A program made the translations under genes and the position numbers. From positions 32,001 to 96,000 of the IMG/VR virus record IMGVR_UViG_3300037461_000951: a stretch of DNA of 64,000 bases; one strand, given 5' to 3'. The notes below the pieces were generated by a model. That model worked only from the letters and a program-made list of their open reading frames with translations. It did not search any database and was not told where the DNA came from. This document shows positions 11,284 through 64,000 of this stretch, piece by piece (within the stretch, counting starts at the first letter, position 1; every line of letters starts with the position of its first letter). The DNA is from a virus.

Positions 11284-11688
11284 TTAATGTTTTTCTTCCC
11301 GTTTAAATAATTGACTTAAATTCTTTTTAGCTTTTTGGATACATACTTTGTCTAATACTGAAATAAATTGGCCTGACAAATCTACACGATTATACCCTTT
11401 GGACATGTTTTTTAAATACTTTTTAGAATTGGTGTGTAAGTGCAATGCGCTGTTAATGACTCTTTTTGGGATGTCAGGAAATACCGTAGACAGTTCTTTA
11501 TCTACCCCAATCATTAAAGGTTGATTTTTTTGAAACACATTAAAGTGTTTTCGTAAATGAGTTAAAAATTCTTTAGCTCGTTGAATGTGGTTGGGCTTTG
11601 GAATCTTTTTAATTTCAACACTGACTTTATGAATAGTTTTATTTGAAGATTTTTTAATTTTTTTATACGGCATTTTAAATCTCCACAA
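11284..11688 (-). CDS. ProQ/FinO-family RNA chaperone
   Basis: PLMIGVDKEL...ALHLHTNSKKYLKNMSKGYNRVDLSG matches the FinO-domain pattern PLKIGI...Y..S..YL.....G..R.DL.G. Confidence 0.8.
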   Translation of the reverse strand: MWRFKMPYKKIKKSSNKTIHKVSVEIKKIPKPNHIQRAKEFLTHLRKHFNVFQKNQPLMIGVDKELSTVFPDIPKRVINSALHLHTNSKKYLKNMSKGYNRVDLSGQFISVLDKVCIQKAKKNLSQLFKREEKH

Positions 11689-16320: not shown

Positions 16321-17652
16321 ATCAGCACATCTCCGTAATTAGTCACATGTGAATTTCTGTTTCAATTCATTGTTCGTTCATGGTTATACCTAACTATATT
16401 GTTCAAAAATTATTATATGATTTAAAGAATGAATATTGTTTGGGCTGTAAAGGTTGAACATAACCATATCATTTAGTTCTTTGAATCAATGCAAAATTAA
16501 AGATGTCCAAACAACTGGCTAAGTAATGGGCCAGTATAAAATCTGGAGTATTGCTCCGATTTTCTTCGGAATAAATATTAATTAGTTTGGTTAATTCTTT
16601 TTCAAAGGTTTCCATGAGTATTTTCCAATTGATCATTGTCAGTGCAAAGAACAAGTACTTGATATTTTATATTATCGTTATTAGTAACGAGTAGATCACA
16701 TAATTCATCTGTAAATTTCGGTGCTAAAATTTTATTCAAAGCTTCTAACAATTCAGTGAACGCTTTACGGTTGCCAACAATTTTAGCAATGTCATAAGGA
16801 TGTTGCTGTGGATAAAGCATTAAATAAGATTCTTTATCTCGTTTAAAGGTTTCCATTTTCAATCACCTTTAGTAAATTAAGAGCTGAACATTTTAATATT
16901 AAATGAAAATAACCATTCTTATTGACTTTTACAATTTCACAATCTAACCAACGAATATTTTCATTATTTGCTGAGTATTTGAATAATAGCTCATCATGGA
17001 GATGTCCGAATTTTCGAATATAATAATATTCCATGTGACCTACATACAAAACTAAATCCGGTTCTTGTTGTATTTTTTCAATATAACTTGCTTTTGTTTT
17101 TAAAATTTCATTTGCAAAATTATTAAGTATCTCAATATCTCGAGAACAATCACGTTTTTTCATGATTATTTCTCATATTGTTAGATGTATGAATAACAAC
17201 CATCCATGCGAACCATGCAGTCGTAAAAGCAAACCATACTGCCACCCAAGACCAATAAAAGTCTTTTTCATTAAAAGCGTTTAAAAAGATTAAAAACGCA
17301 ACAATAGTATGTACCCAAGCAATTAATTTATGTTTCATAACAAGTTTCCAATTATTTTGGAGGATTCCATTTACGAGGGGCTGGATTAAATGAAGGATGT
17401 TTTTGTATGATGACTCTTTCTTGATAAATGTAGTTTCGATAATGATCACGATAATTGTGTTTATCTTTATGATAATGAAATCTATCATACTCTTTATGAC
17501 ACGAATCTCTTTTACAATCTCTATCGGCATAAACACTATGGGACATTAAAAGAGTTAACAACAATAATAGTTTTGGGTATTTCATAGTTAAGTTTCCATA
17601 ATTTTTTCAATTTGAGAGTACAGTTTACGACATTATACCTTTTATTTTACAT

Positions 17653-19101: not shown

Positions 19102-19158
19102 ACTATACTACTCCGAATGACTCATTATATGTTATCCCAAAATTTAAGGACTGTCAAC

Positions 19159-19377
19159 ATGGCAATGTTGTACGAACGCGAACGTCATCTACAAGTCATC
19201 GTAAAAAGTGAAACAAAAAAGATTTTAAAACAATTAGCAGATGAACATAGTTGCACACTTTCCAAATTTGCAAATCAAGTTTTGGAAGAATATATTAATA
19301 AAAATTATCCACAATTAATAAATAAGAAACAACAAATTCTTCGTAAACCATTACCAAAATGTTTTGAAAATCTTTAA
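19159..19377 (+). CDS. Ribbon-helix-helix (CopG-like) regulator
   Basis: HLQVIVKSETKKILKQLADEHSCTLSKFANQVLEEYI; divergent from the Rep-like gene. Confidence 0.65.
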   Translation: MAMLYERERHLQVIVKSETKKILKQLADEHSCTLSKFANQVLEEYINKNYPQLINKKQQILRKPLPKCFENL

Positions 19378-19420
19378 ACTAATACTTGTGTTTGACAGAT
19401 TTTGATTAAATTTTGATGTG

Positions 19421-19689
19421 ATTATTCCCCCGATTGGTTGAGTAAGATATTAAATTATTCCCCCAATTGGTTGAGTGATTTTTTCGTTTTTAAACTGAAT
19501 TACAATCATTTAGCGAAAATTAAACCAATCGGGGGAATAATTGAAAAAAGTCAACCAATCGGGGGAATAATTTGAAGATTTTTTAATAAATTTCTTAAGC
19601 ATGACTCAACCAATCGGGGGAATAATGGTCAGATCTCTCAACCAATCGGGGGAATAATTTGCTAAAATTAAACCAATCGGGGGAATAAT
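19421..19689. repeat. Iteron array / putative replication origin: 7 copies of 19-bp AACCAATCGGGGGAATAAT
   Basis: Inverted copies start at 19421 and 19454 (the latter with one mismatch); direct copies at 19523, 19553, 19608, 19640 and 19671; AT-rich spacers. Confidence 0.85.
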
Positions 19690-20173
19690 TTGGAGATTTT
19701 TGACCATTTTTGAAGAGTTTTTGTGGGTTTCCCAAGTGTTTATTCAAGTCGTAACACTCCCAAGTGTTACGACGACTTGAAGTTTCAAAAAACGAAATTA
19801 TTAAAAATCCATCATCAACAGTCTGTCCATCGGACAGACAGCTAATGAGGAGTCTGAACGAACACAATAACTCCCTTCTTCGAAGGTCGTATTGGTTCGT
19901 CCCGACCTCTGATTCTCATTAGCTGGCTACACTCTTTTGGTTGGACTTCGATATGGAAACTGATACTGCATACTGTGAAAAACATCTTATAAAAATCCCA
20001 TGTTTCGCATTTTTTAATATTGCGCCGCAACCCACTCATGTAATCCGTCTCACAACCCACCAAATAGTCGATTGTAGCCATTTAAATGTTTCGGGAATGA
20101 CAACGTAGCGGGTCGTTATCAAAGTGGCTAAAATTGCCATTTTGGTGGCTTCCCTTCGATGTCGAAGTTTCGG

Positions 20174-20202
20174 TTGACAACGGGAGTGGTGGCGAGTATA
20201 GT
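20174..20202 (+). promoter_or_regulatory. Near-consensus sigma70 promoter
   Basis: TTGACA (20174-79), 17 nt, TATAGT (20197-202). Confidence 0.75.
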
Positions 20203-20207
20203 GAGGA

Positions 20208-20280
20208 TGCTGTGGGGTAGTATTGCTTCACATCATGCTTAATTCTCCGTAAAGCCCGAATTGCAAGATTCGGGTTTTTT
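20208..20280 (+). ncRNA. Putative ~70-nt small RNA
   Basis: Lies between the promoter above and terminator GCCCGAAT-TGCAAG-ATTCGGGT-TTTTT. It has a 5' hairpin UGUGGGGUAG/UUGCUUCACA and an unpaired UCAUGCUUAAUUCUCCGU; no credible ORF. Confidence 0.6.
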
Positions 20281-20404
20281 AATCTTGTTTAAAATGTTTC
20301 CATACATTTTTCCAAAAAAGATCTAAAGAGTTACAATGCGTCCAATAATCATCTTCGTAGCTCACATTCCAAAAAACCCAAAGCCAGTGAATGTAAAATT
20401 TCAT
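20279..20404 (-). CDS. 41-aa Trp-rich peptide
   Basis: Below the ORF-track cutoff: MKFYIHWLWVFWNVSYEDDYWTHCNSLDLFWKNVWKHFKQD, with GGAGAG RBS; ends at the bidirectional terminator. Confidence 0.45.
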   Translation of the reverse strand: MKFYIHWLWVFWNVSYEDDYWTHCNSLDLFWKNVWKHFKQD

Positions 20405-20421
20405 AGTAAACTCTCCAACGG

Positions 20422-20459
20422 TTACTGGATAGTATAAATATATTTATACTATCCAGTAA
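20422..20459. repeat. Perfect 38-bp palindrome
   Basis: TTACTGGATAGTATAAATA|TATTTATACTATCCAGTAA. Confidence 0.9.
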
Positions 20460-20463
20460 AATT

Positions 20464-21045
20464 TTAAAATCTGGTTGTTAAAATATCTATCAACCAGTAT
20501 TTATCGATCTTACTGAGATCGATATAATGTATGGACTCTTTTAAAAAATCTTGTATGTTTTTGGGTTGAATACGGTAATATGCAACACGTGTTTCATCAT
20601 TACCCCCTTCTTTGGCAGCTTTTAAGAACTTTAAACGAATCCAGCGTTGAACAGTTCGGGGGTCTACATTTAAGATGTGTGCTAATCCCTCTGCGGTATA
20701 GCCCACAATCGTTTCATCGCGTTCCACTTTCATTCGCCAACCATCTCGAAAACGGAACCCATCAACGGCATCGGGTGTTCGACGGTATCCAGCTCTACGA
20801 AGAGCACGGCTGGCTTCTTCATGCGTTAGGTGGGGCATTTTACGTAGTAAAATAATTTCTGGTGCCGTCCATCGACGGACGGGGTTTTTATTGGAGATGG
20901 GTTTTAGACCCAGTTGTCTAGCTCTTTTTGTTAGTTTATCAGTTCTGCATTGCCAAATTTGGGCTTGTGTCGAGATGGCACCCAAGATATAAGGTGGGGT
21001 ATACAATTCCACAATGCGGGCATCCATCTCGGGAGTAAAATTCAT
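20464..21045 (-). CDS. Multi-HTH DNA-binding protein (MerR/Xis-like C-terminal HTH)
   Basis: YTAEGLAHILNVDPRTVQRWIRLKFLKA; WTAPE Myb-like segment. Start moved to MNFTPE because the upstream MFHVKQ is the translation of a parS-like site. Confidence 0.65.
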   Translation of the reverse strand: MNFTPEMDARIVELYTPPYILGAISTQAQIWQCRTDKLTKRARQLGLKPISNKNPVRRWTAPEIILLRKMPHLTHEEASRALRRAGYRRTPDAVDGFRFRDGWRMKVERDETIVGYTAEGLAHILNVDPRTVQRWIRLKFLKAAKEGGNDETRVAYYRIQPKNIQDFLKESIHYIDLSKIDKYWLIDILTTRF

Positions 21046-21061
21046 GGCGTGTTTCCAAGTT

Positions 21062-21077
21062 TGTTTGACATGAAACA
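21062..21077. promoter_or_regulatory. parS-like site
   Basis: TGTTTGACATGAAACA, 14/16 match to TGTTTCACGTGAAACA. Confidence 0.55.
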
Positions 21078-29627: not shown

Positions 29628-31459
29628 GGCGATGATTCACAAAAAGGTTTTAAGAATAAAGCCCGGAGAGTATCCGGGCTTGGTGATTATTTCAGTTCCA
29701 GAATTAAATCTTCAGGTTGGATGACATAACCAAACTCGCTACGTTGTTCATATCGATGTTTTTTTACTGCGAAGTAATAAACACCTTGCGCATCATCCCC
29801 ATTGATGGCTGCACGAACCATGAGTTCATCTTCATCCAAAGTGGGATCATCTACATCGCGTTCCCAACACATCGTTTCAATGAGTTGACCTTTATTTTTT
29901 TTCAGCCAGTATAAATAATGAGCCTCTACACTGGTGGCTTTAGTGGGAAGTACAATAACATTAAGATCTTGTTCATATTGTTCAGGAAAAAAGTGTCGTT
30001 GATTGTCGTTCATGCCTGTAAAGAGACTGCTGATTTGGTGGAAGGTTTTAGCTCTTTGAGCTTTCGCTTACTACGGAAGGTGCGATTTCCCTTAGTGGTG
30101 GTGGTGATTAAATTGAATTGTTTGGGATTGAGCCATTTTTTTAAATCTTCAATTGAAAATTGGGCCAGTTCAATAAATTTTTCAACTCCAAGTTCTTGTA
30201 ATACTTTTTTATTGTCAGTCACGATGGTTTTTTCTGCGGGTGCTGTAATGAGCAATTCGAATTCTTTACCTGTTAAGTTTAAACTATCTTCTGGTAGATC
30301 TTTAATGATCGCTTCAATAATTTTTTTACAGCCGTCTTTAATTTTAGTTTGTTCCTTAATGATTTCGGAGCTACGACCGTATTGATCGATTTCAGACATG
30401 ATTGCGGGTTTGACTTGAACATTTTGCATGTTAATTCTCCAGTGATTAAAGCACAACCCGGTTTTTGGGTTGACGTATTATATAGTGTATGACATGGAAT
30501 GTCAAATGTCGCTCTTTAAAAAGTATTTGACATTTAAGTTCAGGTATAGTAACATATTGAAAACATTTAATTTATTCACCTTTGAGAGGCTTTTGTCATG
30601 TATCCTGCCACACACATTAGTATGCATTTTAATCAGTATTGGCGTTCAGGATTGATTGAAGTAAAACCGATTAGAGTTGTTGATTTTAAAGAACTAGCAT
30701 TATTATACGATTTAGAAGATTTTATAGAAGAAGTTGATTTACCATTACGAGCACAAAGAAATTCAGAATTTTTATTGGAAACAAGTTCATTAAAAGATGT
30801 TTTTTATTTTGCATTAATGACGGTGGTTCGACAACGAGGGGTAAATAGTAAAGATAGATGTTTTAAGAATCAAAAGTTTTTATCATTGCAGGAATTGAAA
30901 AGTAAGACGATTAGTGGACAGTTGGAAAAACGACATGTATTAGATTCATTGTATGATTTATTTATATTTGCATATCGACGATGTTCAGGTTATTTTAAAC
31001 AAGAATTGAGTTTTTTGGTGACGAATAAAGATCATTATTATTATTATCTGTGGTTGTTTAATCAAGTGTATGATCGAATTGTGTGTGGTAGGAAGCAGCT
31101 TCAAGGGGAGTTGCATACGAAGGCGTTATTGACTACTTTATTAAAGAAAGATGTTTTGCAAGCATTAAAAGAGTGATCAATAGTTACCCGGTGTCATTGC
31201 CGGGTTTATTTTTAAAATTATTTGTCCTATGGATTAAAATGTGCTATGGTGCTTTTTATATTATGAGGTATTGCTGTTGTGATTGATGGTAGATTACAAA
31301 AGAAGATCAGTGATGTGGTGTTAGCGTGTCGGACGTGTAAACATTTCCGAGATGATGATCTTGATTATTTTTATTGTGTTTTACAGAAAAAAGAATTTCC
31401 GGCGTTGTGTTCTGATTATGAATATGTTTTTAAATTACCAACATTTGGGGTGGATGTAG

Positions 31460-50462: not shown

Positions 50463-53400
50463 TATGAAGGTTCAAATTTGGCTTTTAAACGAAGATATTC
50501 TTGTTGTTCTTGTTGTTTTTTGAATTCATCTTGTTTTGTACGTCTTGCATTTAGTTCAGCATCAAGTTCTTCTTTAGTTAAAATTTCTAAGTTGAGTAAA
50601 TCTGTGTGAAAAAATTCTTCAAAAATATCTTTATCTTTATCATACGAATAAGTATTTTCTGGATCAATGTCCATTACAACAAAACGATCTGTGAATGAAA
50701 AAAGTAAAGCTCGTGAATTTAATGAATAAACATAGTCTTTAAAAACACAATTTTTGCAATTTTCTAAATAATCTTCTCTAATTTTCATAATTAAATCTCA
50801 GTTGTTGGGTTCAAAAATTGCTTTTAATCGAAGATATTCAGCTTTGTGAAAGTCCATGAATAACTTTTTATTTTCTTCATTTTGTGCATTTATTTCTTCT
50901 TGTGTATAAAGATTGTTGTCTATTAAATCTTCTTCATAACATTCTTTTATTAAATCTAAGTTTTGATTAATAATCATATCTTCATCTACTTCGCCATAAG
51001 CGATGGTAAAACATGTATAGCAATTTTCAAAGATAAAGACTATACTATTATTGTTGATAGTGTTAAAAGATTTTTTGAAAGTTTTATTTTCACAATCTTC
51101 AATGCTTGTAAATTTGATCATTAATATCTCCGTATGTGCTGTGAATATAGTGTCGTTGCACCATGCTATTTTATCACAGTTATTTAGATTTTGCAATTTT
51201 TAATGTTGTAAATTTAAATCGGTGTCTTGCTGTATAAATGGTCTAACGCTTCATCTACATCTGCTCCCAAAAATCCACAAGCAAGAAAATTGCTTGTGGA
51301 TTGGGTTTTATTTAACTTTAATTTTTGGATAAATAGGTATTTTCAGTTGTTTTTTGACGAGATTCATTAGTCGTTCTTTTGTTTCAATACCTACTTTAGT
51401 TTCCCAGTATGTCGCTTCACACAAAAAACGTAATGCTATATTACGATCTTTTTCAGTGACAATATCGGTTAATTTAGACAATTCGTCGATGTAGTGTTTA
51501 GCATTTCTTGAAATTTTGAAATTATCATATTCTATTCTAATCATCACACAAATATGTTGGAGTTCCGTCATGCGAACTCCTTATTTAAAGTTTCTTCAAG
51601 TAGAGAATTAAAAACTTCATCGGAACATGGAGTAAATTCTTTTGCTCCAAATAAACCAAGGTGTTTGGATGTGGTTTGACTGTATTTTTTCTCGGTTTTA
51701 AACCGACCTTCTGGACTGGAAAAAGCCACACAAGTTTCGTATGAAAAGTAAAGAGTGACTTTATCAATAATGACTTCTGTGGCATTGTTGCTAATGATTT
51801 TTAATTTGACGATCATGATTCTAACTCTTGTTTAGCGAATACTTCTGAAAGTGTTTTTAAAACATAACTCATTTTATAGTCTTTTAAAATAAGTTCCATA
51901 ATTCCAGATAATGGTAATGTTTGTAAAAAATAGATGTTTGCTTGTGTAGAAAAACCTTTTCTACTTATTTGATAAATTATTGCATCTAATAAATTTGAAA
52001 TTTCTTCATTTTCTTTGTCGTTTTGTATATGCGAGATTCGCAATAATAGTTCATGAGTTAAAGATTTGGTTGGTATTTTAATTAAAATATCTTTTACATC
52101 TTGTTCAGACAGTTCAATGTCTTTTGTTAAAGTAACCATACTTATATCTCATTTAAAGATTCTGTGGGTTTGGTGATTTTACGCTTGAGTGGGGTTTTCT
52201 TGACAGCGGGTTCTTTAGCGGGTTTCTTTTTAGTTTTAAATTCCAAAACTTCTGCGGTTTTTTGTACGGTTACAACATCTGCTACAATTTCTTTAACGGG
52301 TTCAGTTACGGGAACATGTGGAGTTAAAACCTCCATGAGTTCTTCTACAATTTCCTTTTGTTGTAAGCGAAGTTCCAGCATTTTGGAAATTCGTTCTTGA
52401 GTTTTTTCATTCTCTTTATCGAAGTTGTTGGGAAGATTTGGAGTGGTGAGTAATGATACACCGCCTTCGTCCCATCCTTTTGTTCCATGGACTGCCCGTC
52501 TTCCGGTGCTGATAATGACTAATGCGGCATCTGGAACAGGTTCTTCCAAACTGAATGCTTTTTTGATTTTAGTTAAGAGTGCTTTTGGAATGATTTTTTG
52601 TAGTGTGCCTTTTTGATAGTGGTTTAAAACCACATCAAGGATACCTTTGTACTGAGTACCCAAAGCTCTTTTAGCGAGAAATTGGATTCCTTTGGGTGAA
52701 AAAAAATTCTTATCACCTAAAAATTCAATCAATTCTTGTTGTTTAGACAAATTGCGTTGTCCGGTTTTAACTTCTGACATGTTAATTCTCCAGTAAATTT
52801 ATACAGTTTGGGTTGCTTGGCGCATAGCGATTGTAACACAATGCGCCAGAGTTTTCAATGTTAATCGTCGTACACTATTCTTCCTTGTTTAACGGATACT
52901 ACATTATCTTTGACTAATATTTTCCAACGATCATCATAATCTTCACCATATGCGGTGAGTTCTCCATTACAAATATGGTCGAAGGTGAAATTTACAAAGT
53001 ATGACGATTCTGAATCTTTTGCTTTTGCATTGGGTTTTAAGAAAGTGTCGATTAAATATCGAATCCATTCTTCAGCGTCGTATGTTTTTTCACCTTCATC
53101 CCAAATAAGTTCACTTCCATCTTCTGTGGGAATAAAATGGCACCAAATTCCTGGTTGTCCACCTTCTGGTGAATTAGCATTCATACAATTTGGATCATTA
53201 AAAAAAGGTTCAGAATAAACTCTTGATTCATTAATGTAAAATGGACCTTGTTTGCGGGTCATGTGTCGGGTGTATGCAAACTTAGTCAAATAATCAATTT
53301 CAGCTTCATTGAGAGGTGGATTGATATTAATACGGCCTTCAAAATCAGTGTTATAACCCATGGTTAATCTCCATAATCAAACAATCTGAGCATGGCTCGT

Positions 53401-56400
53401 TCTAAAATTTCTTCATCGTTGGTAAAGTAAAAGTCGTAATAATCTTCAATAGCTTCTTCTAATTCTTGTCGATCACAATCTCCTGGTATTTCATGGATAC
53501 TGAGAATTTCGTGCTCTTCAAATTCGTCAGTGTTTTCTCCATGGACAATTTCAAAAACTACATAACGAGACATTGGAGCGAGTAAGTCGGTTATTTCTTC
53601 ATCGGATTCTAGTGAAAACTGATACAAGCATTTATCCACGGTAGTTTTTTCCTTCAATGGTGAGTGCTCCATTTTTCTTGAGTAGTTTTTTCTCAATTAA
53701 TCCTTGTTTTGCAGTTTCCCATCGAGTTTCAGACATGCCAATTTGCTGTCGGCGTGAAATACCAGCATAAGAGGCTTTAAATTGTTGAGTTGCTTTAAGA
53801 CACCGTTTTTCATCTTCAGTTAGTGTTAGTGTTTGTGGATTCGGTAAGAGTTTGTTGATGTTTTCTTTATTGGTATAAATGAATAAACCGGCATCCTTAC
53901 CGCAACTGATCATGTGCTCTACCACGGCGTGGTTGGGAGGAATTTCAAAAGAGGCGTGAGCAATTTTTAGAAATGGATTGGAAGTTTGTGAATCGGGAAC
54001 TTGAATGTCTCCGGTAGTAAAATTAACGACTTTACAATAACTTCTTGAACCTTCATTCCAATAATTAGACATGCAATAACTATTGGATTCCACCAATCTA
54101 AATTTTTGTCCAGTATAGTCTGTATAGCAGTTTAAAATGGTTTGTGGAATTTCAGCTCTTTTTAAGTAATACATGTTAATTCTCCATGAGTGTTGGTATA
54201 TACGCTTACTGGCGTAAGCGTATCATAGCATATTGTTAAAGAGTTTTCAAGCAAAAACATCCACGTAATCTTTCAATGTTCCTTGTTTAAAAGAATCGGA
54301 ACGAATGATTGTTTCAAGATCTTCAATAAAAGGTTTTAAGTATTCATCGAATGAGATGTGTTGATATTCATCAATCCACGTCACTCCATCTGCATAACGA
54401 GCCATGCACAATTCTCGGGTGGCTTGTAACGCTTCATCAATACATTCTTCCAGTGTGGGTTTAATAATGCAAAGTTCATCGGAATCTACTACATAAGAAT
54501 TATAATGAGGACTTGGAGCATAAGGAATCCATTCAAATCCTTTTTCTGGATCTCCTAAAAGATGATCAGTGATGTACTTTAATTCTTCATCGGTTTCTAC
54601 ATAAGCCCAATCGATAGAGCTTTTGACGTAACAACAAAGCATGACATAGCAAGGTGTTTTCATGATCAAACGTCCAGTGGCATGGTAGGATAACCATAGT
54701 TGTCTAAAGATTCATTAACGGATTCAGCTAAATCTGAAAAGTCATCATCCGGTGACATTTCTCTAAATTCATCACGCCATTCTTTTAATTCTTGTAATAG
54801 TCCATCTTCTAAATCTAAACGGAATGCCCAAATGGGGGAAAAAAAGGAAATAAATTCTTGTCGTGTCATATTGTTCTCCTTACGGTAATTTTCTGGCTGC
54901 GGTGGCAATTTTCCAGCAGTGTCTTCGATACAAAGCGAGGTTCAATGTGTTACTCCATCCATGGAGAGTGGCTGACCAGAGTGGGATATTGAGTGCTTCC
55001 TGTCTGGATGATGTTTTCCACATCTTATAGTCAAAACGAACAGATGTTAAATGATAACCTGAAGCTTTTAGAGCTTGTGTGTATTTTGACATTAAAATTC
55101 TCCATACGCCGTCCTTGGCGTTGACTGCTCAGTAAGTTGTTTTTACGTAGTTATCTGACCATGGACCTACTTTGTAAGTTCTTTGACAGTTGGCGGGTTT
55201 TGAACATGTTTTTGAACTGGCTTCTGGATTACTGCAATGTTCTTTGGCATGTTTTTGTGTGACAAAAGTGCGTAAAACGCGCTCTTTTTTAGCATCGTGA
55301 TAATAGCGAACAATTTTATATGTGTATTTTTTATTCATCAAACAGTTCCTTTTTCCAGTTTTCAAACCATTCTTCATTAACGAGAGTGTTAATTCGAGTT
55401 TCAACTCCGTCAGTGAGGCTATTACCGTATACCTCCCATGCACTGTCTGGATCTTCCATCGAATTTAATTCATGAGCAAAAAATTCAAACGGTGAGTAAG
55501 ACCTGTAGTTATCGTCAGCTTGCCAAACTAATGTATAAATGGAGTCTATGTAATCTTCATAGTCCATATCTTTGGTGATTTTGACATCTTTGTAGTTATA
55601 CGTGACTAAGTCTTGTCCAACGGAATAGCCTTTTTGATAAATAAAATCGTTGTCCATGTTAATCTCCAGTATGGTGAACGTGTGGCGCTTGTTGCGCAAA
55701 ATCATTTTATCATAATAAATAAGAATTTGCAATTATAATTGCAAATAATCTTTTTTGGATACGGGTTTAGTTTTACCTGAACAATAGTATTCTAGTTGGA
55801 GTTGCATACAAAATTCGTCAGTGACAGGTTGTGTAGTATTTTCATTTTTATGAAACATCTTTTTACATTTTGGACAAATCGCCCAATTTTTTAAGAATTG
55901 TTTTAATGACGGTTTATTCATTTCTATACCTTAAATTTATATGTTTTAATAGATTTAATAGTGATGGATTGATCAGGGAAATGATGTGTATAAGCATCAA
56001 AAAGAGCTTGCTGAACTTTTGGATTCAAAGTTTCAGTATTTTCAATGAGTTTTAAGACATTGACGAAAAAATTAATTGTATCTTTTTTGGAAATTTCTTC
56101 CAATGCGGAGTTTTTCATGTTAAAAATCCTCTAATTTAGAGTTGCAATCTTTCATTAATTTTGCAAAGTAATCAGCCCAAGAAGGATAGCCTAATTCCCA
56201 AGCAACACATTCTCTGACCATGGCTGCGGGTTGCATTTTAAGAATTTGTTCATCCTTGCTATTATTATTGCTGTCTAAATTCTTTCGTTGTCTTAATATT
56301 TCTATGATGTGTAGTGGAATTGTCATTTTAATCTCCAATCAATGTGCGATACAGCATTCGTTGCCACGAATGCAGTTTAGCATATTTTTGAAGGTATTAC

Positions 56401-56421
56401 AATCAAATTGTGGAGGTGTTT

Positions 56422-56883
56422 ATGTTGTATAAATCCGAATCTGGTCATATTTACGAAGAAAAAACATGTGAATTGTGTCAGCATCAATTTTTTTATCGAC
56501 GAGATTGTAATGATGAATGTCCCATTTGCAAACGCAAAAGACGTTTGTCCAAACCTGATTTAACCGATCCTGCCATAAAAAGAACATATAGTAGTTATTA
56601 CAGTATGTTGTCTCGATGTACGAATACGAATCATAAAGATTATCCCAATTATGGAGGACGGGGGGTGATGGTTCAACCTGAATGGATCGAATCTTTTGAT
56701 CAGTTTTTAGCCGATGTGGGATTAAGACCTGAACATACCAGTTTAGATCGAATTTCTCCCAACAAACATTACACAAAAGATAATGTTCGTTGGGCGAATC
56801 AGCACGTACAGAACACAAATAAACGCAAAAAGTTCCAAGGTCTTTGGAGTAAAGTCTTAAAACCCCAAGCTGAAAAATTTTAA
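56422..56883 (+). CDS. Free-standing HNH endonuclease, opposite orientation to neighbours
   Basis: YYSMLSRC...YPNYGGRG..V..EW..SF..FLADVG.RP...SLDRI....HYTKDNVRWA...QNTN. Confidence 0.88.
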   Translation: MLYKSESGHIYEEKTCELCQHQFFYRRDCNDECPICKRKRRLSKPDLTDPAIKRTYSSYYSMLSRCTNTNHKDYPNYGGRGVMVQPEWIESFDQFLADVGLRPEHTSLDRISPNKHYTKDNVRWANQHVQNTNKRKKFQGLWSKVLKPQAEKF

Positions 56884-59800
56884 TCAGGATATTCTTCTAT
56901 GTGATCTTCACAGTTGTAATCAACAATGCTTGGATCTTTTTCAAAAAGAATTTTATATAAACCTGTGGTACACATGGCATCTTCAATGATGTCTGCATCT
57001 ACGCCTTGTAACTCATTGGGCGTAAAAATAGCCAGTGCAAAGCCTTTGTTTCTTAATTCAGTGATGGCATTTTCAATGTGGGGAGGATATTTAATCATTT
57101 TGATGCTCCATTAAGATGAGTGTGTTTTCTAGTAATTTGATCATGTCGGTGGGATCATTGAAAGATCCAATATATGTATCATTGCAAGTCACACTGTGTA
57201 TTCTGACGATGGGACAGTATTCATCGGTTTCATCAGAATAACAATCGCAATCGTCATCGGGAGCTATGTCAGAGTATTTTTTACATAAGGCGCAATTACG
57301 TCCATCGAAGTGTAAATTTTCACCTGTTACAACGCCGAATAACGCATGTTGTCTGTATCTGACATCATGCTTTTCACAATTTTCGGGTAAGGCCCCTTTC
57401 CATTTTTGGATGCTGTGTTTTAAACATTCTTCATCGGTTTTATTGGTATAGTCAGCAGCATCTATCGGATAAAATTCTTTTATCCAAGTATCGAATGACA
57501 TAAAATTCTCCATTAAAGAGTTTTTAGAATGTGAATGACTTTTTCAAGAATATGGATGCGTTCTTCCATCCATTCTATGGTAGTGTCATCAGCATAAGGT
57601 ATGTGTCTATTTAAATGTTTTTTAGCGCTTTCTAAATCATCATAAATCTTTTTTATGTTATTTTGGTACCTTTGTATTTCAGCTTGAGCAAATTTTAAAC
57701 GTTCTTCAATGGAATAAAATGGATTTTCCCATAAATTGAGCATAAAGATTCCTTAAAGTTCTTTCAATTTGGTTTTTACGGTTTCAAGATTACATGTCGC
57801 CCATGTGGTTTTCTGATCCGTTTGTCGATAAGTAAATCTCATTGGTCTTTTACCGACAAATCCGAACCAAATATCTCTATCTGATTCTTTTTCTACAATT
57901 CCTTTACAGTATGTTAAATCTAATTGCAGTTTGATTTCCAAACTTTTAAAAACATCGTAAGGAATGATTGCCAGCAGTGTTGTTTTTTTGTCTGGTTTAA
58001 ACATTGGCATCTTCCGTAAAGTGGATATGGTCAAAATCGCTTGACGCATTTATTTTAGCATGGATTCGAAGATATTACAAGTGGAATTTAATGTTTGACG
58101 ATGAATGTGTAGGCACGTGTGTCTAGATGCTTAATCCGTCTGGTAAGCGGTCAAATCGGTCATTTTAGCGACTTTCTAACGACTCCAGTATCCCAACAAC
58201 CCCTGGGTGGGAAAGTTGCTCAAATCGTCTCACAGGCGGTTTTTTGGATAGATAAAATTTCAACAGAACTTTTTTGTCTGGCCCCAAAAAGGCGGGGCTG
58301 TGCAGCAAAATCTGCCGAACAGCCCCGCCTTTACAGCATGGAGAATTTAATCAACGTCTAGCCAACTATCTTCATTATCGAATAGTTTGGTTTTTTCAAA
58401 CACCTCAAGTTGGAAATCATGAATTTCTTGAAAATCTCCAGCATAAGCCTTACACCATTTTTTTACCAATTCTGGTTCTTCAAACAAATTGTATAAGTAA
58501 TCTGCATCTTCTTGTTTTAAGGTGTAAATATAAGAGCATGGCTGATTGTACCAACCAATTCCCACCACAATGAGTCGATTCTCGTAGTATTGAACTAACA
58601 TATCAATTCTCCCAATTAATTGAACAAATCCATATCACGAAGATAGTCATACACATCGGGGGGAATTTCATCGTCTCGACGTGCTGCAAAGATACTATCA
58701 TCGGTTTTGCGGCAGTATTCCATTCGCTCTTCTAGTGTGCAATCTTGCCAAAATTGATAAATGGCTTCATCTTGACGCTGGGAATAATCATCGTCATCTA
58801 AAATGGGATATTCGTTCTTTAAATAGTGGTACAGTTCATCGGCCTTTTCAATCAGCTCTTGTGGAGCATCTTCACGAATCATTAAATATTCTACCCAACC
58901 CACTGCCCAATGGGAAGCGGACCAGACGTACAGCCAATCACTTGGAAGTTCTTCCTCTTCCCCATAATACGTTCTTTTGTAACGAGTGTTGGGTTTTGGT
59001 AAGTCTTCAATGATAGTTTCTAATTCTTGTTGTAAACATTCCCAATTGGATTCTGTTAGTAGTGTGGAATCTCTATGGCGGGAATATAAAACATAATCTC
59101 CAACGGGATCAAAACCAAAATAAGAATCGGGAGTTGTCCACTTTGGTAAGGTGATTTGTGTGGCTGTGTTCATGCTTTTTTCTCCATGAGTTTGAATGGC
59201 TTGCGGCTTTTTGCCGCAAACGCAGTATAACACAGTTTTAAAGATTAAGCAATCACAAAATGATTGATTGCTAAGAGTGCTGTATCAATAGTCATGTTAA
59301 GTTCTGGAATAACAAAACCATCCGTACCAAAGCCATAATAATCTTCAATGACAGCTTTATAAACATGGCCTAATTCTGCCATTTCAGAATCTTCAAATTT
59401 AATATTTTTCCAGCATTCTACATTGAAAATCTGTCCAATCATTCGTTCTCCGGGACTGGGAAGATCAAATGAATCTGTTTCGCAAATGGCGTTATACCAA
59501 TTGAGTAGACGTATGGCTTCATCTGTGTTGGGAGGAAAAGGCGCTTCATAGTGATGAAACATGAAGATTGCATAACATGGATCATTTAGTCCAATACAGC
59601 TACCTTGTGGGTAAGTATATGCTGTTTTCTCATCTTTAATTTCCAAACTCTCATCTTCCATAATTTCAGCCATGAAGGTTTCATTCGTGCGGTTATCTAC
59701 CAATGGGATATACATGCTAAGGTCTCCAATTAATTTTCATGCGTTTCTTCATTTTTAATTGACAGTTATAAAGGTTTTCATAAACCTTTTTTACGTATTC

Positions 59801-59985
59801 AGTTTCATCTTCAGTGGCTAGTCGTGTCTTTTTAACCACTCCTTGGGGATCACCTTCCCCATGTTGTCCAATTTCTTCCCACATATCTACGGTGTAATTG
59901 TGTGGATTAATTTCTTTTGGAAAGATTAAAATGGGAGTCTTGGGTTTAATCTTCCATACGCGGCATACCGCTTCTAATGGTGTGT

Positions 59986-60492
59986 TCATAGATCATTAAC
60001 ATTGATACAAGTGTAGGTATCACCACCGAATTCAAATTCTACCATGGCTCCATCATGTTCAAATTCTTCAGCAATTTTTTCATAGTCAATGTAATTTCGA
60101 ATTGATGAAGATACATCATATATTTCATTGAACATGTCATACGCAGCATCAAACAAAGTTCCACGATGGAGATATACATCGTCAACTTTATTTATGGCAT
60201 CTTTTAGTGAAATACTCACATTGTTATCCAACAAGAAAAACAATCGGGGCCAATCACTCTCATCCATGTTTTCAATGACATCAAGCACATCTTGTAAATT
60301 GCCTTGATTGACTCCAATGGTTTGGACTAATTCAATTTCTTCACGATTACCATCGATGATCTCAATTGAGAATTCTTCAACGGGGAATTTATATTCTTTT
60401 TCAAGCTCTTCAACACCCTCTTCAAACTCATCATACGTTTCAAAGTAAAATCCAGTGACATCTGCATTATACGGATTGGCGTAAAATTTCAT
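59986..60492 (-). CDS. ardA: ArdA-like antirestriction protein (DNA mimic)
   Basis: YANPYNADVTGFYF...EEFSIEIIDG...NYIDYEKIA...GAMVEF; highly acidic. Confidence 0.75.
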   Translation of the reverse strand: MKFYANPYNADVTGFYFETYDEFEEGVEELEKEYKFPVEEFSIEIIDGNREEIELVQTIGVNQGNLQDVLDVIENMDESDWPRLFFLLDNNVSISLKDAINKVDDVYLHRGTLFDAAYDMFNEIYDVSSSIRNYIDYEKIAEEFEHDGAMVEFEFGGDTYTCINVNDL

Positions 60493-63400
60493 CTTGAGTT
60501 TCCTTAAATGGTGGTCTCTTCGATGTTAGCGAATGGCAATTCTTGTGGATGTTCCCATTGAGACACAACGGTATCGTTGAGTTGTTCTTCAATAATATCT
60601 CTGACTCCGTAAATGTTGAGCAATTCAATGGGCGAAAGATTGGCGAGTTCATAATACAAATTTTTCATGAATTCTTCATCACTCATTTGATGATAAGGTT
60701 GCATTTTAAATTCTCCGGTGATTGCCATCCTTGGCATAACGATGTTAAATACAAGGCATCCAACGCTCATATTGAGCAATTTCTTTGCAAATACGTGCAG
60801 CAATCTTACACGCTTGTTCATTACGAAGGTCGTAATATTGATTTTCGTATTGATCATTCAACCCTTCGATGTACTTCAAACACAGTTCCATCTTGGCTTG
60901 GAGTAATGTACGATGGTCTCTGAGCATTAAATCAGCTAATTCTTGCATGTCTTCACGACATCCCGCATTGACAATACGGCTAATTCCTTCAGCCGTGGTT
61001 TTAATCAATTCTTTTAGTTCGTCATGAGTCATGTTTATTCTCCAGTATTGTCGGAATAATCATCATAACAATCTTCAACATGATTTTTGATGTGGATGTC
61101 TTTAACTTTCTGGGGTGCATCCAGTTGCGCAATGATCTCGTAATTGTATTGTTGTAAAAATCTCCCATAAAGATGGGGATTTTCATCCACATGATTAAAG
61201 TTGACACCTGCTGGATGCAGTTCATTCCAATTCTTCATAACATCATCAAGTAAACTCATACTGAATTCTCCAAAGTTTGAGTGGTTGCTACCATGCTGGC
61301 GCATGGCAATCATAACACAGTATGGAAGATTAATCAAATAATTTATTGAATTAATCTTCCGGTGTATATAAACCGATTTCAACGGCATCTTGATGCGTAA
61401 TTAAGCATTTACGCGCTTTTAAAATCTCTTTACTGGCGGATTCGTTCAGTAATCTTTTTACCGCGTCTTCCGTGACGACCCAATGGGGACCTGTTGGGTA
61501 TGCTCCGTTGAGAGGCGGTTGTTTGTGCGTGTTAGGCGTTGTGGATACCTCAATGATGAGAATGCCTTGATTAAATAGTTCTTGGCATTTTTTACAAGGT
61601 TCATAGTTTGTTACTATTTTAAGGGGTGATTCATCTTTATAAGCGTTTCCCAATAAAGCAATTTCTCCAGTGCTTTCTCCACACCAAAAGCACTGGCACA
61701 TCGTAGGATTTAATCCGTATTCTTTATGAAGTTTCATTGAAATTCTCCGTTTGTTTGATTTCTAACACCACCCACATATTGCGAGAATTCAATTCACATT
61801 GAATTTCTTGCATGGTGATCATCCATTCTTTGTAGCCAATTTCGGCATGATTAATGGATTCTGGCAAATGGTAAAAATGAGCTTTGGCCCATTCTACTAA
61901 TGCATCTGTGGGTATCCAATCTAAAATAATATCTTTTTTTTCATAAGCCATGGGAGTTTCCTTAAACTCTGACAGTAAGTGCCATGAGCTTCTGCATGAT
62001 GGCTTTACATTCGTGGGGATAAAAGGCGGTATTGATCCCCAATAACCAATCTCGGTAATTTCCGATATTCCAATTATCATTGGAGTCAATTTTAAAGAGT
62101 AGCATTGCATCTGCTAAAGTGCTCGGAAAAAAGACATTGGCATTTTTAAACGGTTCTAACAATTTTTGATACAATGCTTCTCCACGATCATCTAATTTTA
62201 CAATTTCAGTCCAATTAAATTTTGTGGGTTTGAGATCAATTGTACATGCAAACAGTGGATCAGCTCTTGGTGTATCATAGTCTCGTGTACCGCAATAACC
62301 CGTAATATAATACGGCATACCTAATTTGGTTAATTCCGTATTAATGGAATCCATAAGCAGATTTATGGGGAAGTTGGGTATGTTTTGTACAGCATGGTTG
62401 ATGATATGTTCTGTTGCGGAGCAACCATGTGATTCTTCAACATCATTTAAAATTTGTGTTAAACTTTTTAGTATTTCTGTGGACATGCTATTCTCCAATT
62501 GTGTTGGGTTGTGTAAATCCGCTGGACGGATGAAGTTTAGCACACTTTTTAAGAATGTGCAATATGCAATGGTTGTAATTCTTTGATTTTCCAATGGACT
62601 TCTTTATTGATAAAGCGCAAATCTTCCACACGCATGGGAAGTTTATACAACTTAAAAGAGCGATTGATTTCTTTAATAGCCCAGTCTTTATCTTCGAGAG
62701 ATAGTTCAAAATTAGTCAGTATGAATTCTGCTGCACAGTCGGGATGACCGTTGATCTTTTTGATCACTTCCCCTGGGGTTAAAAAGTTCATGAGAGACTC
62801 CTTTAAAAAAAGGAACATGATACTACGGATATTGCATTGCAGCAAAGGCTAATTGCTGCAATGCAACTTTTTGCTATGAGGTGGCTGCCCGTAATTGAGA
62901 TATTTCATGAAGAAGTTGTGGATTTTTACGGAGGATTTGTGGATACAGTGGTTCGTGTCTGGATAGCTGCTCTTCTGCTTTCTTCAGCTTTTTTAAGCCT
63001 TTGAGCATTCGCTCATGATTCCGAAACATGAGGTTGGTCATGCGTCGATCACGACGCTCTTTGTTCTTGACATAGTAAAATTCATGCGGCATGACACATC
63101 TCCTTATACTGTTTAAATGCCCAATCCCACGCATTGTCTTGGAATTTGATACCGTGGTGACAGATGATTGCAGCCCCTCCAGCAAATTCATCGGGTCGAG
63201 GTTTACTACAAGTTTCAGCCCATGTAAAAACGACATAACCTGTTTTGGGTTTTAAAATTTCTAAACGAATCAATGCGTATAGCCATTCTGTGGCTAAATC
63301 TATGTCACCACACTCTTCAGCATATACGTAGTATTCTGATTCGTATATTGTCGTTTCAAATCCACAACTTTCATGTTCATAGAATATTTGTTCAAACATT

Positions 63401-64000
63401 TCTCCAACGATATTATTAATGTGGTCGGGTAGTTTCAGTTCATCAATTTCTTCAATTTCATGGGTTGTTACAGTCTTTAGCCATTTTTCCATGGCTTTTA
63501 ACTCTTCTACTTTGTCTGGATTAATATCTACCGCCACGCTGAATTGCAAGTAATTGTTTGCCATAACTTATTCTCCCAAGTGAGCGTAAATTTCTTTAAG
63601 TACTAATTCTTCGGGTGCGCCAATAAAATGTGGAAAGATGGGCATGACGGATTCCCCCATGGGGTCTTCGATCATGCGTCTTTTTAAGTTGATGTTGAAT
63701 TCACCGATCTGATTGCCCAGTCCATCAGCCCAATCTTGCATGGGGTTGACTTTTTTAATCTTTTTGTTTTTGGATATATTCAATTTAATATCTTCAAAAA
63801 CATTAAATTGATCTTCAATAAACCAAAGCTGTTCTACCATTGTATTCATAGCAATTCTCCGAACGTTGGACAATAAAAAGCCCGTAATTTCTACGGGCGG
63901 TATGGTTACTTTTGGTTGAGGATGTAATAATTCTTTCCGTATTGGTACGGAACGAAATGGAAACCTTCTTCATCAGAAGAAACAAATCCACTAATATTTT

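What the first reader, a model, noticed from the sequence alone, without database searches (positions are those of the whole stretch)
20174..20280. Small RNA complementary to the shared RBS/start motif of many phage genes: a possible master translational silencer, with a phage ProQ as chaperone
Seen: a near-consensus promoter (TTGACA-17-TATAGT) and a U-tailed terminator bound a ~70-nt plus-strand unit. Its unpaired middle is CAUGCUUAAUUCUCC. The minus-strand genes starting at 30429, 52780 and 54174 all have the identical initiation region UGGAGAAUUAACAUG. Close variants occur at 53361, 55092, 55657, 58601, 61032, 61737 and others. The RNA could pair 10 contiguous nt over the SD and spacer, plus CAUG over the start codon with one bulge. 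A ProQ/FinO gene sits at 11284-11688. Inference: one sRNA next to the replicon could repress a regulon of early genes during a plasmid-prophage state or at the early-to-late switch. Alternative: the motif is only the relic RBS of a two-codon minus-strand mini-ORF (ATG ATG TGA).
Basis: partly seen in the sequence, partly recalled or inferred. Interest (0 to 1): 0.75.

Follow-up and report, generated by a model that had tools for sequence, protein, structure and literature searches.

The report
Phage small RNA mirroring early-gene start sites
A 150-kb-class environmental phage carries a well-formed, conserved 72-nt small RNA whose exposed middle is the exact mirror of the ribosome-binding/start motif shared by its block of small early-type genes, so it may switch off dozens of genes at once, but this is so far only supported by sequence analysis.

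Summary
A near-consensus sigma-70 promoter (20174-20202) and an intrinsic terminator (20251-20280) bound a 72-nt plus-strand RNA: 5' hairpin, 18-nt unpaired stretch, terminator. No Rfam family matches.

It is the only promoter-plus-terminator unit of this kind in the 111-kb contig. The one close relative with this locus has it at the same place. There both promoter hexamers stay near-consensus around a diverged spacer, the 5' hairpin changes compensatorily, and the unpaired 18 nt are invariant.

That stretch is the reverse complement of GGAGAAUUAAGCAUGA. This is the consensus of an extended start-site motif specific to the minus-strand small-gene block at 48-79 kb: 26 of 70 block genes are strong predicted targets, against 13 of 165 elsewhere. 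SD strength does not explain the motif, and it persists in orthologues of two further contigs.

Best reading (about 0.4): a trans-acting translational silencer of that gene class, an RNA counterpart of T4 RegA/RegB. The phage's minimal ProQ/FinO protein is a possible but untested partner.

Because the seed is itself the antisense of a start site, cis-antisense and relic readings remain open. No transcript or repression has been shown.

The scan noted this stretch before on the same genome only.

The parts
20174..20202 (+). Sigma-70-type promoter TTGACA-17-TATAGT
   Evidence: It matches 11 of 12 positions and is one of about nine sites at 11 of 12 or better in 111 kb. In the relative the -35 is identical and the -10 is TATGAT. 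Ten of the 17 spacer bases differ there.
20209..20280 (+). Predicted 72-nt small RNA; both ends are inferred, not mapped
   Evidence: Fold z = -3.9 in the window and -4.3 in the relative, with the same architecture. No Rfam match. It is the only promoter-terminator unit of this kind in the contig.
20211..20232 (+). 5' hairpin (SL1)
   Evidence: Eight of 22 bases differ in the relative, yet the helix is kept. One G-C pair becomes A-U, and there are two one-sided compatible changes.
20233..20250 (+). Unpaired seed UCAUGCUUAAUUCUCCGU
   Evidence: No changes in 18 nt in the relative, against 11 of 30 in the RNA's 5' part (p = 0.003). Unpaired probability is about 0.9. It is complementary to the block's start-site consensus.
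20251..20280 (+). Intrinsic terminator: AAA, then a GC-rich hairpin, then U6
   Evidence: Found by the terminator scan. It is conserved apart from one loop change and the loss of one G.U pair through a deletion on each side. It meets the published FinO-domain ligand requirements of a hairpin plus at least 4 U, with an A-rich 5' side (PMC7367173).
20228..20249 (-). Antisense image of the seed: GGAG, an 8-nt spacer, then ATG ATG TGA (two-codon ORF)
   Evidence: Read directly from the sequence. The relative has ATG AAG TGA. No longer minus-strand frame is conserved: the 49-aa and 34-aa frames lose their frame, start or stop in the relative.
20279..20404 (-). Convergent 41-aa Trp-rich ORF ending inside the shared terminator
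   Evidence: It is conserved as a protein, with both synonymous and non-synonymous changes. No family matches. Its start site pairs with the seed at -14.6 kcal/mol.
11284..11688 (-). Minimal FinO/ProQ-domain protein (129-134 aa), a candidate chaperone
   Evidence: Pfam ProQ E = 6.5e-14. Best solved relatives are the E. coli ProQ N-terminal domain (5nb9) and N. meningitidis NMB1681. The relative has a copy at 74% identity.
30427..30441 (-). Predicted target start site TGGAGAATTAACATG, for the gene starting at 30429
   Evidence: Exact copy. It lies just downstream of a perfect 12-of-12 promoter at 30505-30477. The relative keeps GGAGAATTACCATG, at -14.8 kcal/mol.
52778..52792 (-). Predicted target start site, for the gene starting at 52780
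   Evidence: Exact copy, duplex -17.3 kcal/mol.
54172..54186 (-). Predicted target start site, for the gene starting at 54174
   Evidence: Exact copy, duplex -18.2 kcal/mol. The orthologue in contig G005 has the identical 14-mer although the upstream sequence is randomised.
48024..64000 (-). Window part of the minus-strand small-gene block that carries the class-specific motif; the block runs on to about 79 kb in window numbering
   Evidence: 26 of 70 block genes score -14 kcal/mol or better, against 13 of 165 elsewhere (odds ratio 6.9, p = 1.7e-7). After GGAG the bases are A 0.88, A 0.77, U 0.60, U 0.56. C at -1 is 46% against 22% elsewhere.

Best explanation
The unit is a real phage small-RNA gene.

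Proposed mechanism:
1. Host RNA polymerase transcribes it from a near-consensus promoter.
2. The 72-nt RNA presents an 18-nt unstructured seed between a 5' hairpin and a terminator.
3. The seed pairs in trans with the translation-initiation regions of the phage's own small, early-type genes. These share an extended motif, GGAGAAUU..(C)AUG(A).
4. Pairing covers the Shine-Dalgarno sequence, the spacer and the start codon. This excludes the 30S subunit and shuts down translation of that gene class.
5. This would serve either as an early-to-later switch or to keep those genes silent in a carrier or plasmid state.
6. The phage's own minimal FinO/ProQ protein may bind the terminator and U-tail, stabilising the RNA or helping it pair.
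7. The seed probably arose as the antisense of one such start site. The two-codon ORF on the other strand is the fossil of that origin.

Shown here: the anatomy, the uniqueness of the unit, its conservation pattern, the class-specific complementarity, the persistence of that complementarity in orthologues, and the presence of ProQ.

Inferred: transcription, pairing in vivo, repression, timing, the 'early' status of the block, and the ProQ partnership.
For: (1) It looks like a gene. Promoter, terminator and a significant fold are present. It is the only such unit in 111 kb, with the orthologue as the only one in the relative.

(2) Selection is visible against the relative (G001, identical to L010 here):
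- -35 hexamer: 0 of 6 changed.
- -10 hexamer: still 5 of 6 to consensus.
- Spacer: 10 of 17 changed.
- SL1: 8 of 22 changed with the helix kept, including one compensatory pair.
- Seed: 0 of 18 changed.
- Overall, 29 of 67 changed upstream against 1 of 58 across seed plus terminator (p = 8e-9).

(3) Complementarity to start sites:
- 70 of 236 start sites reach -12 kcal/mol or better, against 3.5% of intragenic windows.
- Seeds that keep CUCC but have shuffled flanks give 24 +/- 12 (1 of 300 reaches 70).
- In an unbiased two-strand genome scan the best sites after the antisense locus itself are mostly start sites of the minus-strand block.

(4) Class specificity beyond SD strength. Among genes with equally strong 16S pairing, 51% of block genes are strong targets. 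The figures are 14% for structural genes and 12% for the rest. The motif positions after GGAG and the C at -1 are block-specific.

(5) Persistence in orthologues:
- In the more distant contig G005 the same seed hits 42 of 152 start sites, against 5.9 +/- 5.7 for shuffles (0 of 200 reach it).
- In 32 orthologous block pairs, upstream positions -40 to -16 are only 34% identical.
- Even so, 13 of 13 strong targets stay at -12 or better, and only 1 of 13 weak ones becomes strong.

(6) Location. A block-type start-site sequence with no gene attached sits in the replication module, where few equally strong-SD genes (12-14%) are strong targets. It is read in antisense from a conserved promoter.

(7) ProQ. 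A FinO-domain protein is present in both phages that have the RNA. The terminator has the published ligand features (PMC7367173).

(8) Precedent:
- RocR with RocC is a trans, multi-target case (PMC9977716).
- T4 RegB and RegA use start-site motifs to shut off early messages (PMC3014915).
Against: - No transcript, no 5' or 3' ends and no regulation have been observed.
- Only two distinct sequences of the RNA exist in the data I could reach, so conservation rests on one comparison.
- The seed is the antisense of a start-site-type sequence, so complementarity to similar start sites follows automatically. The antisense of 4 of 235 ordinary start sites matches as many targets.
- The block motif could exist for another reason, such as a preferred initiation context or a handle for an unknown protein.
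- The modal GGAG-to-AUG spacer in the block is 7 nt, whereas a perfect match needs 8. Many duplexes therefore need a bulge.
- In the part of the genome shared with the close relative, only 3 of 6 strong predicted targets keep strong pairing.
- The 'early' status of the block is inferred only from small ORFan genes.
- ProQ could serve the phage's other RNAs instead. The contigs G002, G004 and G005 do not cover the locus, so co-occurrence of RNA and ProQ is untested beyond one close pair.
Confidence: 0.4

Rival explanations
1. A cis-antisense regulator. The RNA acts on minus-strand transcripts of its own locus. One candidate is the convergent 41-aa gene's mRNA, which shares the terminator. Another is read-through from that operon towards the structured minus-strand RNA and the iteron origin. 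The duplex would block the GGAG/two-codon-ORF ribosome-loading site or trigger cleavage or termination. This resembles a par/Fst-type or OOP-type arrangement.
For: - The RNA is perfectly complementary to the minus strand, which carries a strong SD plus a two-codon ORF kept at the same length in both phages.
- The 41-aa ORF converges on the RNA and ends inside the shared terminator. Its own start site also pairs with the seed at -14.6 kcal/mol, and this start site is itself 100% conserved.
- On the minus strand the terminator hairpin is followed by only three U, so read-through is plausible.
- A conserved structured element lies downstream on the minus strand, and a metatranscriptome contig covers it.
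- FinO-family proteins classically assist cis-antisense RNAs on mobile elements (PMC9977716).
Against: - Cis complementarity is automatic and does not need sequence conservation. Yet the seed is invariant while the neighbouring hairpin has drifted.
- The seed lies in an open linker, not in a kissing loop.
- No conserved minus-strand reading frame follows the two-codon ORF.
- The 41-aa product has no family match. Its 12-residue hydrophobic stretch is too short for a typical type I toxin helix.
- Minus-strand transcription across 20209-20281 has not been shown.
Confidence: 0.25
2. The RNA is real but its targets are host mRNAs. The resemblance to the phage's own start sites is a by-product of the seed containing an anti-SD.
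For: - Most characterised phage-encoded trans-acting small RNAs act on host genes (review PMC12197685; bioRxiv 10.1101/2024.10.31.621285).
- An exact 20-nt complement of the seed forms the start site of a 583-aa ORF in a gammaproteobacterial MAG.
Against: - The host is unknown.
- The MAG match is what chance predicts: by my estimate about one exact 20-mer hit in 596 Gb read on both strands.
- The MAG DNA has 47-50% GC, against 39% for the phage.
- This reading does not explain the class-specific motif in the phage.
Confidence: 0.12
3. No seed function. The motif is only the relic start site of a decayed minus-strand gene. The promoter and bidirectional terminator serve as a transcriptional insulator between the helicase operon and the origin region.
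For: - The two-codon ORF behind a perfect SD looks like a truncated gene start.
- The unit sits exactly between the last minus-strand gene of an operon and the origin region.
- Plus-strand terminator-like hairpins also lie just upstream of the promoter in both phages.
Against: - A relic should decay. Instead the 18 nt are invariant where neighbouring non-coding sequence is 43% diverged.
- The promoter hexamers are kept across a diverged spacer.
- An insulator does not need an accessible anti-start-site linker.
Confidence: 0.1
4. A replicon copy-number countertranscript, like CopA, RNAI/Inc or RepX, that controls the adjacent iteron replicon with the FinO-like protein as helper.
For: - A strong constitutive-looking promoter and a short RNA lie about 0.5 kb from five direct and two inverted 19-20-bp iterons.
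- The neighbouring 482-aa protein looks like Rep3, RepA or TrfA initiators by language-model features (score 0.93).
- FopA, PcnR and FinO/RepX are precedents.
Against: - The RNA is not in the leader of the initiator gene, which has its own promoter-like site at 19157-19129.
- The initiator-gene start site pairs only moderately, at -16.4 kcal/mol.
- The relative has no homologue of that protein and a different tandem 22-23-bp iteron array, yet an unchanged RNA seed. A copy-control RNA would be expected to follow its replicon.
Confidence: 0.05

Closest known systems
RocR small RNA with the FinO-domain chaperone RocC (Legionella pneumophila)
   Same: Both are short RNAs ending in an intrinsic terminator. 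RocR pairs in trans with several mRNAs to block their translation, and a FinO-domain protein grips its terminator and 3' tail (PMC9977716). Here there is a comparable anatomy, several predicted targets, and a FinO-domain gene in the same genome.
   Different: RocR is chromosomal and has four targets in one pathway. There is no sequence similarity, and no Rfam family, RocR included, matched. Here dozens of targets are predicted and they are the phage's own genes. Binding has not been tested.
FinP/FinO (F plasmid) and Inc RNA/FopA (IncI plasmids)
   Same: In both cases a mobile element encodes a FinO-domain protein together with a small RNA that occludes a ribosome-binding site (PMC9977716).
   Different: Those RNAs are cis-antisense to a single mRNA and recognise it through hairpin loops. 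Here the seed is an open linker. The only cis partner is a two-codon ORF, and the RNA does not lie in a rep or tra leader.
Phage antisense immunity RNAs: P1/P7 c4 and P22 sar
   Same: These are phage-encoded small RNAs that block translation by pairing at a ribosome-binding site (c4: PMC12197685; sar: from my own knowledge).
   Different: Each has a single target, the antirepressor operon. c4 is processed from a precursor (my own knowledge). No class-wide motif is involved.
T4 RegA (translational repressor) and RegB (GGAG-specific endoribonuclease)
   Same: Both give class-wide shut-off of early or middle phage messages through sequence features of their start sites. RegB cuts GGAG in the SD of early genes. 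RegA competes with ribosomes on about 30 mRNAs (PMC3014915). Functionally this is the closest analogue.
   Different: RegA and RegB are proteins. No homologue of either was detected in this contig, although the search had no positive control and a quarter of the genome is missing. Here the proposed recognition agent is an RNA.
Type I toxin-antitoxin loci with convergent RNAs sharing a terminator (par/Fst RNA I and RNA II)
   Same: A small ORF and a small RNA are transcribed convergently and share a bidirectional terminator. There is a second patch of complementarity at the ORF's start site (par architecture from my own knowledge; local facts).
   Different: The 41-aa product is Trp-rich with only a short hydrophobic stretch and matches no family. 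No toxicity is known.

Membership tests
Any described RNA family (Rfam 15) | A covariance-model match at the gathering score | tested here: not met
   No gathering-level hit in the 64-kb window. In 19500-21000, searched at E up to 10, only chance-level matches overlap the unit.
Trans-acting base-pairing small RNA | Own promoter and intrinsic terminator bounding a short non-coding transcript | tested here: met
   Both elements are conserved in the relative. The only plus-strand ORF inside is 5 codons long and has no SD.
Trans-acting base-pairing small RNA | Accessible seed that is conserved more strongly than the structural parts | tested here: met
   0 of 18 changes in the seed against 11 of 30 in the 5' part. 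Unpaired probability is about 0.9. This rests on only two distinct sequences.
Trans-acting base-pairing small RNA | The transcript is detected and targets are regulated | not testable with these tools
   Only assembled contigs of one metatranscriptome were available. These cannot show a 72-nt RNA or its strand.
FinO/ProQ-dependent RNA (FinP, RocR, Inc, RepX and others) | A FinO-domain protein is available in the same genome | tested here: met
   Pfam ProQ E = 6.5e-14. Solved relatives are 5nb9 and 3mw6. An orthologue is present in the relative.
FinO/ProQ-dependent RNA (FinP, RocR, Inc, RepX and others) | A 3' terminator hairpin with at least 4 U and an A-rich 5' side | tested here: met
   AAA, then a hairpin, then U6; U5 in the relative. 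The criteria are from PMC7367173. They are generic and many terminators meet them.
FinO/ProQ-dependent RNA (FinP, RocR, Inc, RepX and others) | Physical binding, or dependence on the protein for stability or function | not testable with these tools
   No tool here predicts RNA-protein complexes. Co-occurrence is known only for two close relatives. The other contigs do not cover the locus.
Plasmid copy-control countertranscript (CopA, RNAI/Inc) | Encoded antisense within the leader of the initiator mRNA, and co-varying with the replicon | tested here: not met
   The RNA lies 1.1 kb from the initiator-like gene, beyond the iterons. The neighbouring iteron and initiator-candidate module is non-homologous in the relative while the RNA is unchanged.
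Type I antitoxin RNA | Paired with a small, membrane-active toxic peptide gene | tested here: inconclusive
   A convergent 41-aa ORF shares the terminator. It has no family match and no full-length hydrophobic helix. Toxicity was not tested.
Y RNA (Ro60 ligand) | 5' and 3' ends pair in a long stem that carries the Ro-binding site | tested here: not met
   The ends do not pair. The architecture is hairpin, linker, terminator. No Y RNA model matched.

The most novel reading that the evidence does not exclude
One phage small RNA, helped by a phage-encoded minimal FinO/ProQ chaperone, silences the translation of 25-40 phage genes at once. It does so by pairing with a class-specific extended Shine-Dalgarno-to-start motif. 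This would be an RNA-based counterpart of T4 RegA/RegB. In a plasmid-like carrier state it could also act as a translational immunity factor against related phages that share the motif.
Probability: 0.3. Interest if true: 0.85.

Novelty: new variant of a known kind. Interest (0 to 1): 0.62.

Why it matters
Class-wide shut-off of phage genes at the level of translation is known from proteins (T4 RegA and RegB). Phage small RNAs are known mostly as single-target antisense RNAs or as regulators of host genes.

A single phage RNA that recognises a start-site 'address label' shared by dozens of the phage's own genes would be a new way to time a viral programme.

It would also give the first RNA partner, and a function, for the uncharacterised phage-encoded FinO/ProQ proteins.

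The system is small: a 72-nt RNA, a 130-aa protein and 15-nt target motifs. It can be tested directly with reporter fusions and compensatory mutations in laboratory strains.

Tried and rejected
Searches that found no close relative or no further copy:
- Near-identity searches of the 'phages' and 'plasmids' collections with 19000-22000.
- Two IMG/VR searches, one with the 205-aa neighbour and one with a 28-nt pattern.
- A 20-nt seed pattern found only the one relative in IMG/VR and one identical copy in an activated-sludge contig.
- A looser seed-plus-terminator pattern and a ProQ-anchored search again found only that relative.
- Two more distant helicase relatives (47-49% identity; L012, L013) show no homologue in the DNA fetched. 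The full 76-kb contig G002 has no promoter-terminator unit and no ProQ.

Read data:
- The metatranscriptome contigs laid on 14000-26500 do not cover 20209-20281. A 72-nt RNA would not be expected in such contigs, so this is no evidence either way.
- A DNA contig of about 80% identity covering 20124-20338 exists in run X6, but its letters were not available.

Coding readings rejected:
- The minus-strand 49-aa and 34-aa frames lose their frame, start or stop in the relative. The 79-aa frame keeps only its first 18 residues.
- The plus-strand five-codon ORF inside the RNA (AUG CUU AAU UCU CCG UAA) has no SD.

Other checks:
- The seed has no convincing complementarity to the Y RNA array, the tRNA-mimic RNAs, the conserved block or the minus-strand structured RNA. 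The best value, -15.3 kcal/mol, relies on many G.U pairs inside a structured RNA.
- The exact seed complement in a gammaproteobacterial MAG is an ordinary gene start at chance frequency.
- No RegA or RegB homologue was found, but the search had no positive control and the contig is about 75% complete.
- No other anti-start-site sequence with a promoter and terminator occurs in any of the four related contigs.

Full report
**Source.** The window is part of a 111,066-bp IMG/VR viral contig with 39% GC, estimated at about 75% complete. It has no near relatives among deposited phages or plasmids. The same DNA stretch is held by wetland metagenomes from several studies. A close relative occurs in an activated-sludge assembly.

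**The unit.**
- TTGACA-17-TATAGT lies at 20174-20202.
- A 12-bp hairpin followed by six U lies at 20251-20280.
- Taking a start near 20209, the RNA is 72 nt. It folds as a 5' hairpin (20211-20232), an 18-nt open stretch UCAUGCUUAAUUCUCCGU (20233-20250) and the terminator. The z-score is -3.9 and the stretch is about 90% unpaired in the ensemble.
- No Rfam family matches and there is no tRNA.
- It is a plus-strand island in a run of minus-strand genes.
- A scan for a promoter of at least 10 of 12 matches followed 45-160 nt later by a strong terminator finds exactly this unit in the 111-kb contig. It finds exactly its orthologue in the relative, and nothing in three other related contigs.

**Comparative evidence that it is a gene.**

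One distinct relative carries the locus: G001 (IMGVR_UViG_3300010429_001521). Its helicase is 92% identical and it is colinear with window positions -23 kb to 32 kb. L010 is identical to G001 in this region. Against G001:

| Part | Changes |
|---|---|
| -35 hexamer | 0 of 6 |
| Promoter spacer | 10 of 17 |
| -10 hexamer | TATAGT becomes TATGAT, still 5 of 6 to consensus |
| 5' hairpin (SL1) | 8 of 22, helix kept: one G-C to A-U, two one-sided compatible changes |
| Seed | 0 of 18 |
| Terminator | one loop change, plus loss of one G.U pair by a deletion on each side |

- Overall, 29 of 67 positions change upstream of the seed, against 1 of 58 across seed plus terminator (p = 8e-9).
- The relative's RNA folds the same way, with z = -4.3.
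- This is the pattern expected of a transcribed small RNA whose linker sequence matters. It rests on a single pairwise comparison.

**The other strand.**
- The reverse complement of the seed is a textbook initiation region: GGAG, 8 nt, then ATG ATG TGA. The relative has ATG AAG TGA.
- Longer minus-strand frames are not conserved.
- The same 20-mer occurs once in 185,579 genomes, as the real start site of a gene in a gammaproteobacterial MAG. That is about the chance expectation. It shows that this sequence is a functional type of start site.

**Complementarity to phage start sites.**
- I made rough gene calls: 236 genes covering 92% of the contig.
- 70 start sites form duplexes of -12 kcal/mol or better with the seed, and 40 reach -14 or better. 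Only 3.5% and 1.3% of intragenic windows do so.
- Seeds that keep CUCC but have shuffled flanks give 24 +/- 12 and 8.7 +/- 6.3. One of 300 reaches the real values.
- An unbiased scan of both strands puts mainly start sites among the top sites, most of them in the minus-strand block at 52-77 kb.
- Caveat: using the antisense of every ordinary start site as a mock seed, 4 of 235 do as well. The seed is therefore 'consensus-class' but not unique.

**The motif is class-specific.**
- The minus-strand block of small genes at 48-79 kb is mostly ORFans. There, 26 of 70 genes are strong predicted targets, against 13 of 165 elsewhere (p = 1.7e-7).
- After GGAG the block prefers A (0.88), A (0.77), U (0.60), U (0.56). 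Elsewhere the values are 0.56, 0.26, 0.44 and 0.46. C at -1 is 46% in the block and 22% elsewhere.
- SD strength does not explain this. Structural genes pair slightly better with the 16S tail but worse with the seed. Among genes with equally strong SD, 51% of block genes are strong targets, against 14% and 12%.

**The motif persists in relatives.**
- Two more contigs carry the block. G004 abuts G001, so it is the same phage. G005 is a more distant phage.
- The same seed hits 42 of 152 start sites in G005, against 5.9 +/- 5.7 for shuffles (0 of 200 reach it). It hits 16 of 84 in G004.
- In 32 orthologous block pairs the upstream sequence from -40 to -16 is only 34% identical, which I take to be close to random. 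Even so, 13 of 13 strong targets remain at -12 or better, and only 1 of 13 weak ones becomes strong.
- Neither G004 nor G005 covers the RNA locus, so co-variation of seed and motif could not be tested.
- In the part shared with G001, 3 of 6 strong predicted targets keep strong pairing. One of these is the gene at 30429, which sits behind a perfect consensus promoter.

**ProQ.**
- The 129-134-aa protein at 11284-11688 is a minimal FinO domain. G001 has a copy at 74% identity.
- Phage-encoded family members are known to exist but are uncharacterised (PMC9977716).
- The terminator has the generic ligand features: a hairpin, at least 4 U and an A-rich 5' side (PMC7367173).
- Nothing ties this protein to this RNA rather than to the phage's Y RNAs or tRNA-like RNAs.

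**Surroundings.**
- Five direct and two inverted iterons lie at 19421-19690. They sit beside a 482-aa protein that resembles plasmid initiators by language-model features only.
- G001 has a different tandem iteron array and no homologue of that protein, yet an unchanged RNA. This argues against a replicon-specific copy-control RNA.
- Between the iterons and the RNA lie two further elements: a conserved long hairpin with compensatory changes that favour the minus strand, covered by a metatranscriptome contig, and an unexplained conserved block at 20030-20165.
- A conserved 41-aa ORF converges on the RNA and shares its terminator.

**Verdict.**
- A genuine, previously undescribed phage small-RNA gene is likely (about 0.85).
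- The most economical mechanism is trans pairing with the class-specific start-site motif to silence that gene class (about 0.4). ProQ is a possible helper (about 0.3).
- The remaining rivals are a cis-antisense role, host targets, and a relic or insulator with no seed function.
- The concept has functional precedents in RocR/RocC and in T4 RegA/RegB. No described phage RNA does this.

Noticed in passing
window 19815-20055 (minus strand favoured): A conserved, strongly structured element lies between the iterons and the small RNA. It has a terminal hairpin at 19821-19839 and a long hairpin at 19840-19924. The long hairpin shows two compensatory pair changes, and its G-C to G-U changes fit the minus strand only. 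A 232-nt metatranscriptome contig matches 19818-20049 without any difference. It may be a second non-coding RNA or an origin-associated transcript.
   Followed up: partly
window 20030-20165: This block is about 90% identical to the relative, more conserved than the neighbouring protein genes, and has no conserved reading frame. It contains an imperfect 30-nt inverted repeat (20054-20083 with 20122-20151). It ends in a plus-strand terminator-like hairpin (20154-20167), which the relative replaces with a 30-nt insertion forming a stronger terminator. It is unexplained; one possibility is a regulatory region between divergent RNAs.
   Followed up: partly
window 19421-19690; G001 19115-19228: The two phages have different iteron arrays at the same genomic place. 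The window has 5 direct and 2 inverted copies of a 19-20-bp unit. The relative has 4-5 tandem 22-23-bp units of unrelated sequence, and it has no homologue of the 482-aa initiator-like protein. This looks like a swap of the origin and initiator module.
   Followed up: partly
window 20279-20460 (minus strand): A conserved 41-aa Trp-rich ORF with a strong SD lies here. A perfect 38-bp palindrome (about 20421-20458) precedes it and overlaps promoter-like hexamers. The palindrome lies just downstream of a 205-aa HTH protein gene and may be an operator for it.
   Followed up: no
window 30477-30505 (minus strand): The only perfect 12-of-12 sigma-70 consensus promoter in the contig lies here. It is conserved in the relative. 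It drives the ORFan gene at 30429, whose start site is an exact copy of the shared motif.
   Followed up: partly
window 22844-23795: The HNH endonuclease gene (22871-23785) is absent from the relative G001. Contigs of two wetland runs skip it precisely, with deletions of 947-950 bp. It is therefore a mobile insertion that is polymorphic in the population.
   Followed up: no
window 15587-15988 and 25867-25944: Apart from 19818-20049 and some short or mismatched fragments (15720-15898; 25233-25282), the metatranscriptome contigs in this 12.5-kb stretch fall on the region upstream of the Ro60 gene and on the RNA region downstream of the DUF7873 gene. Earlier notes of this scan describe these as a Y RNA array and as tRNA-like RNAs.
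   Followed up: no
G000 contig ends; G005 38.4-81.4 kb; G001 and G004 ends: The related contig G005 bridges the two ends of this contig with about 43 kb of extra DNA. The full genome is therefore probably near 150 kb, and the missing quarter lies between the contig's ends. G001 and G004 come from one metagenome and end at the same homologous point, so they are two pieces of one phage.
   Followed up: partly
L014 7649-7668: An exact 20-nt complement of the seed forms the ribosome-binding site and start of a 583-aa ORF with no Pfam match in a gammaproteobacterial MAG. This is about the number of matches expected by chance.
   Followed up: partly
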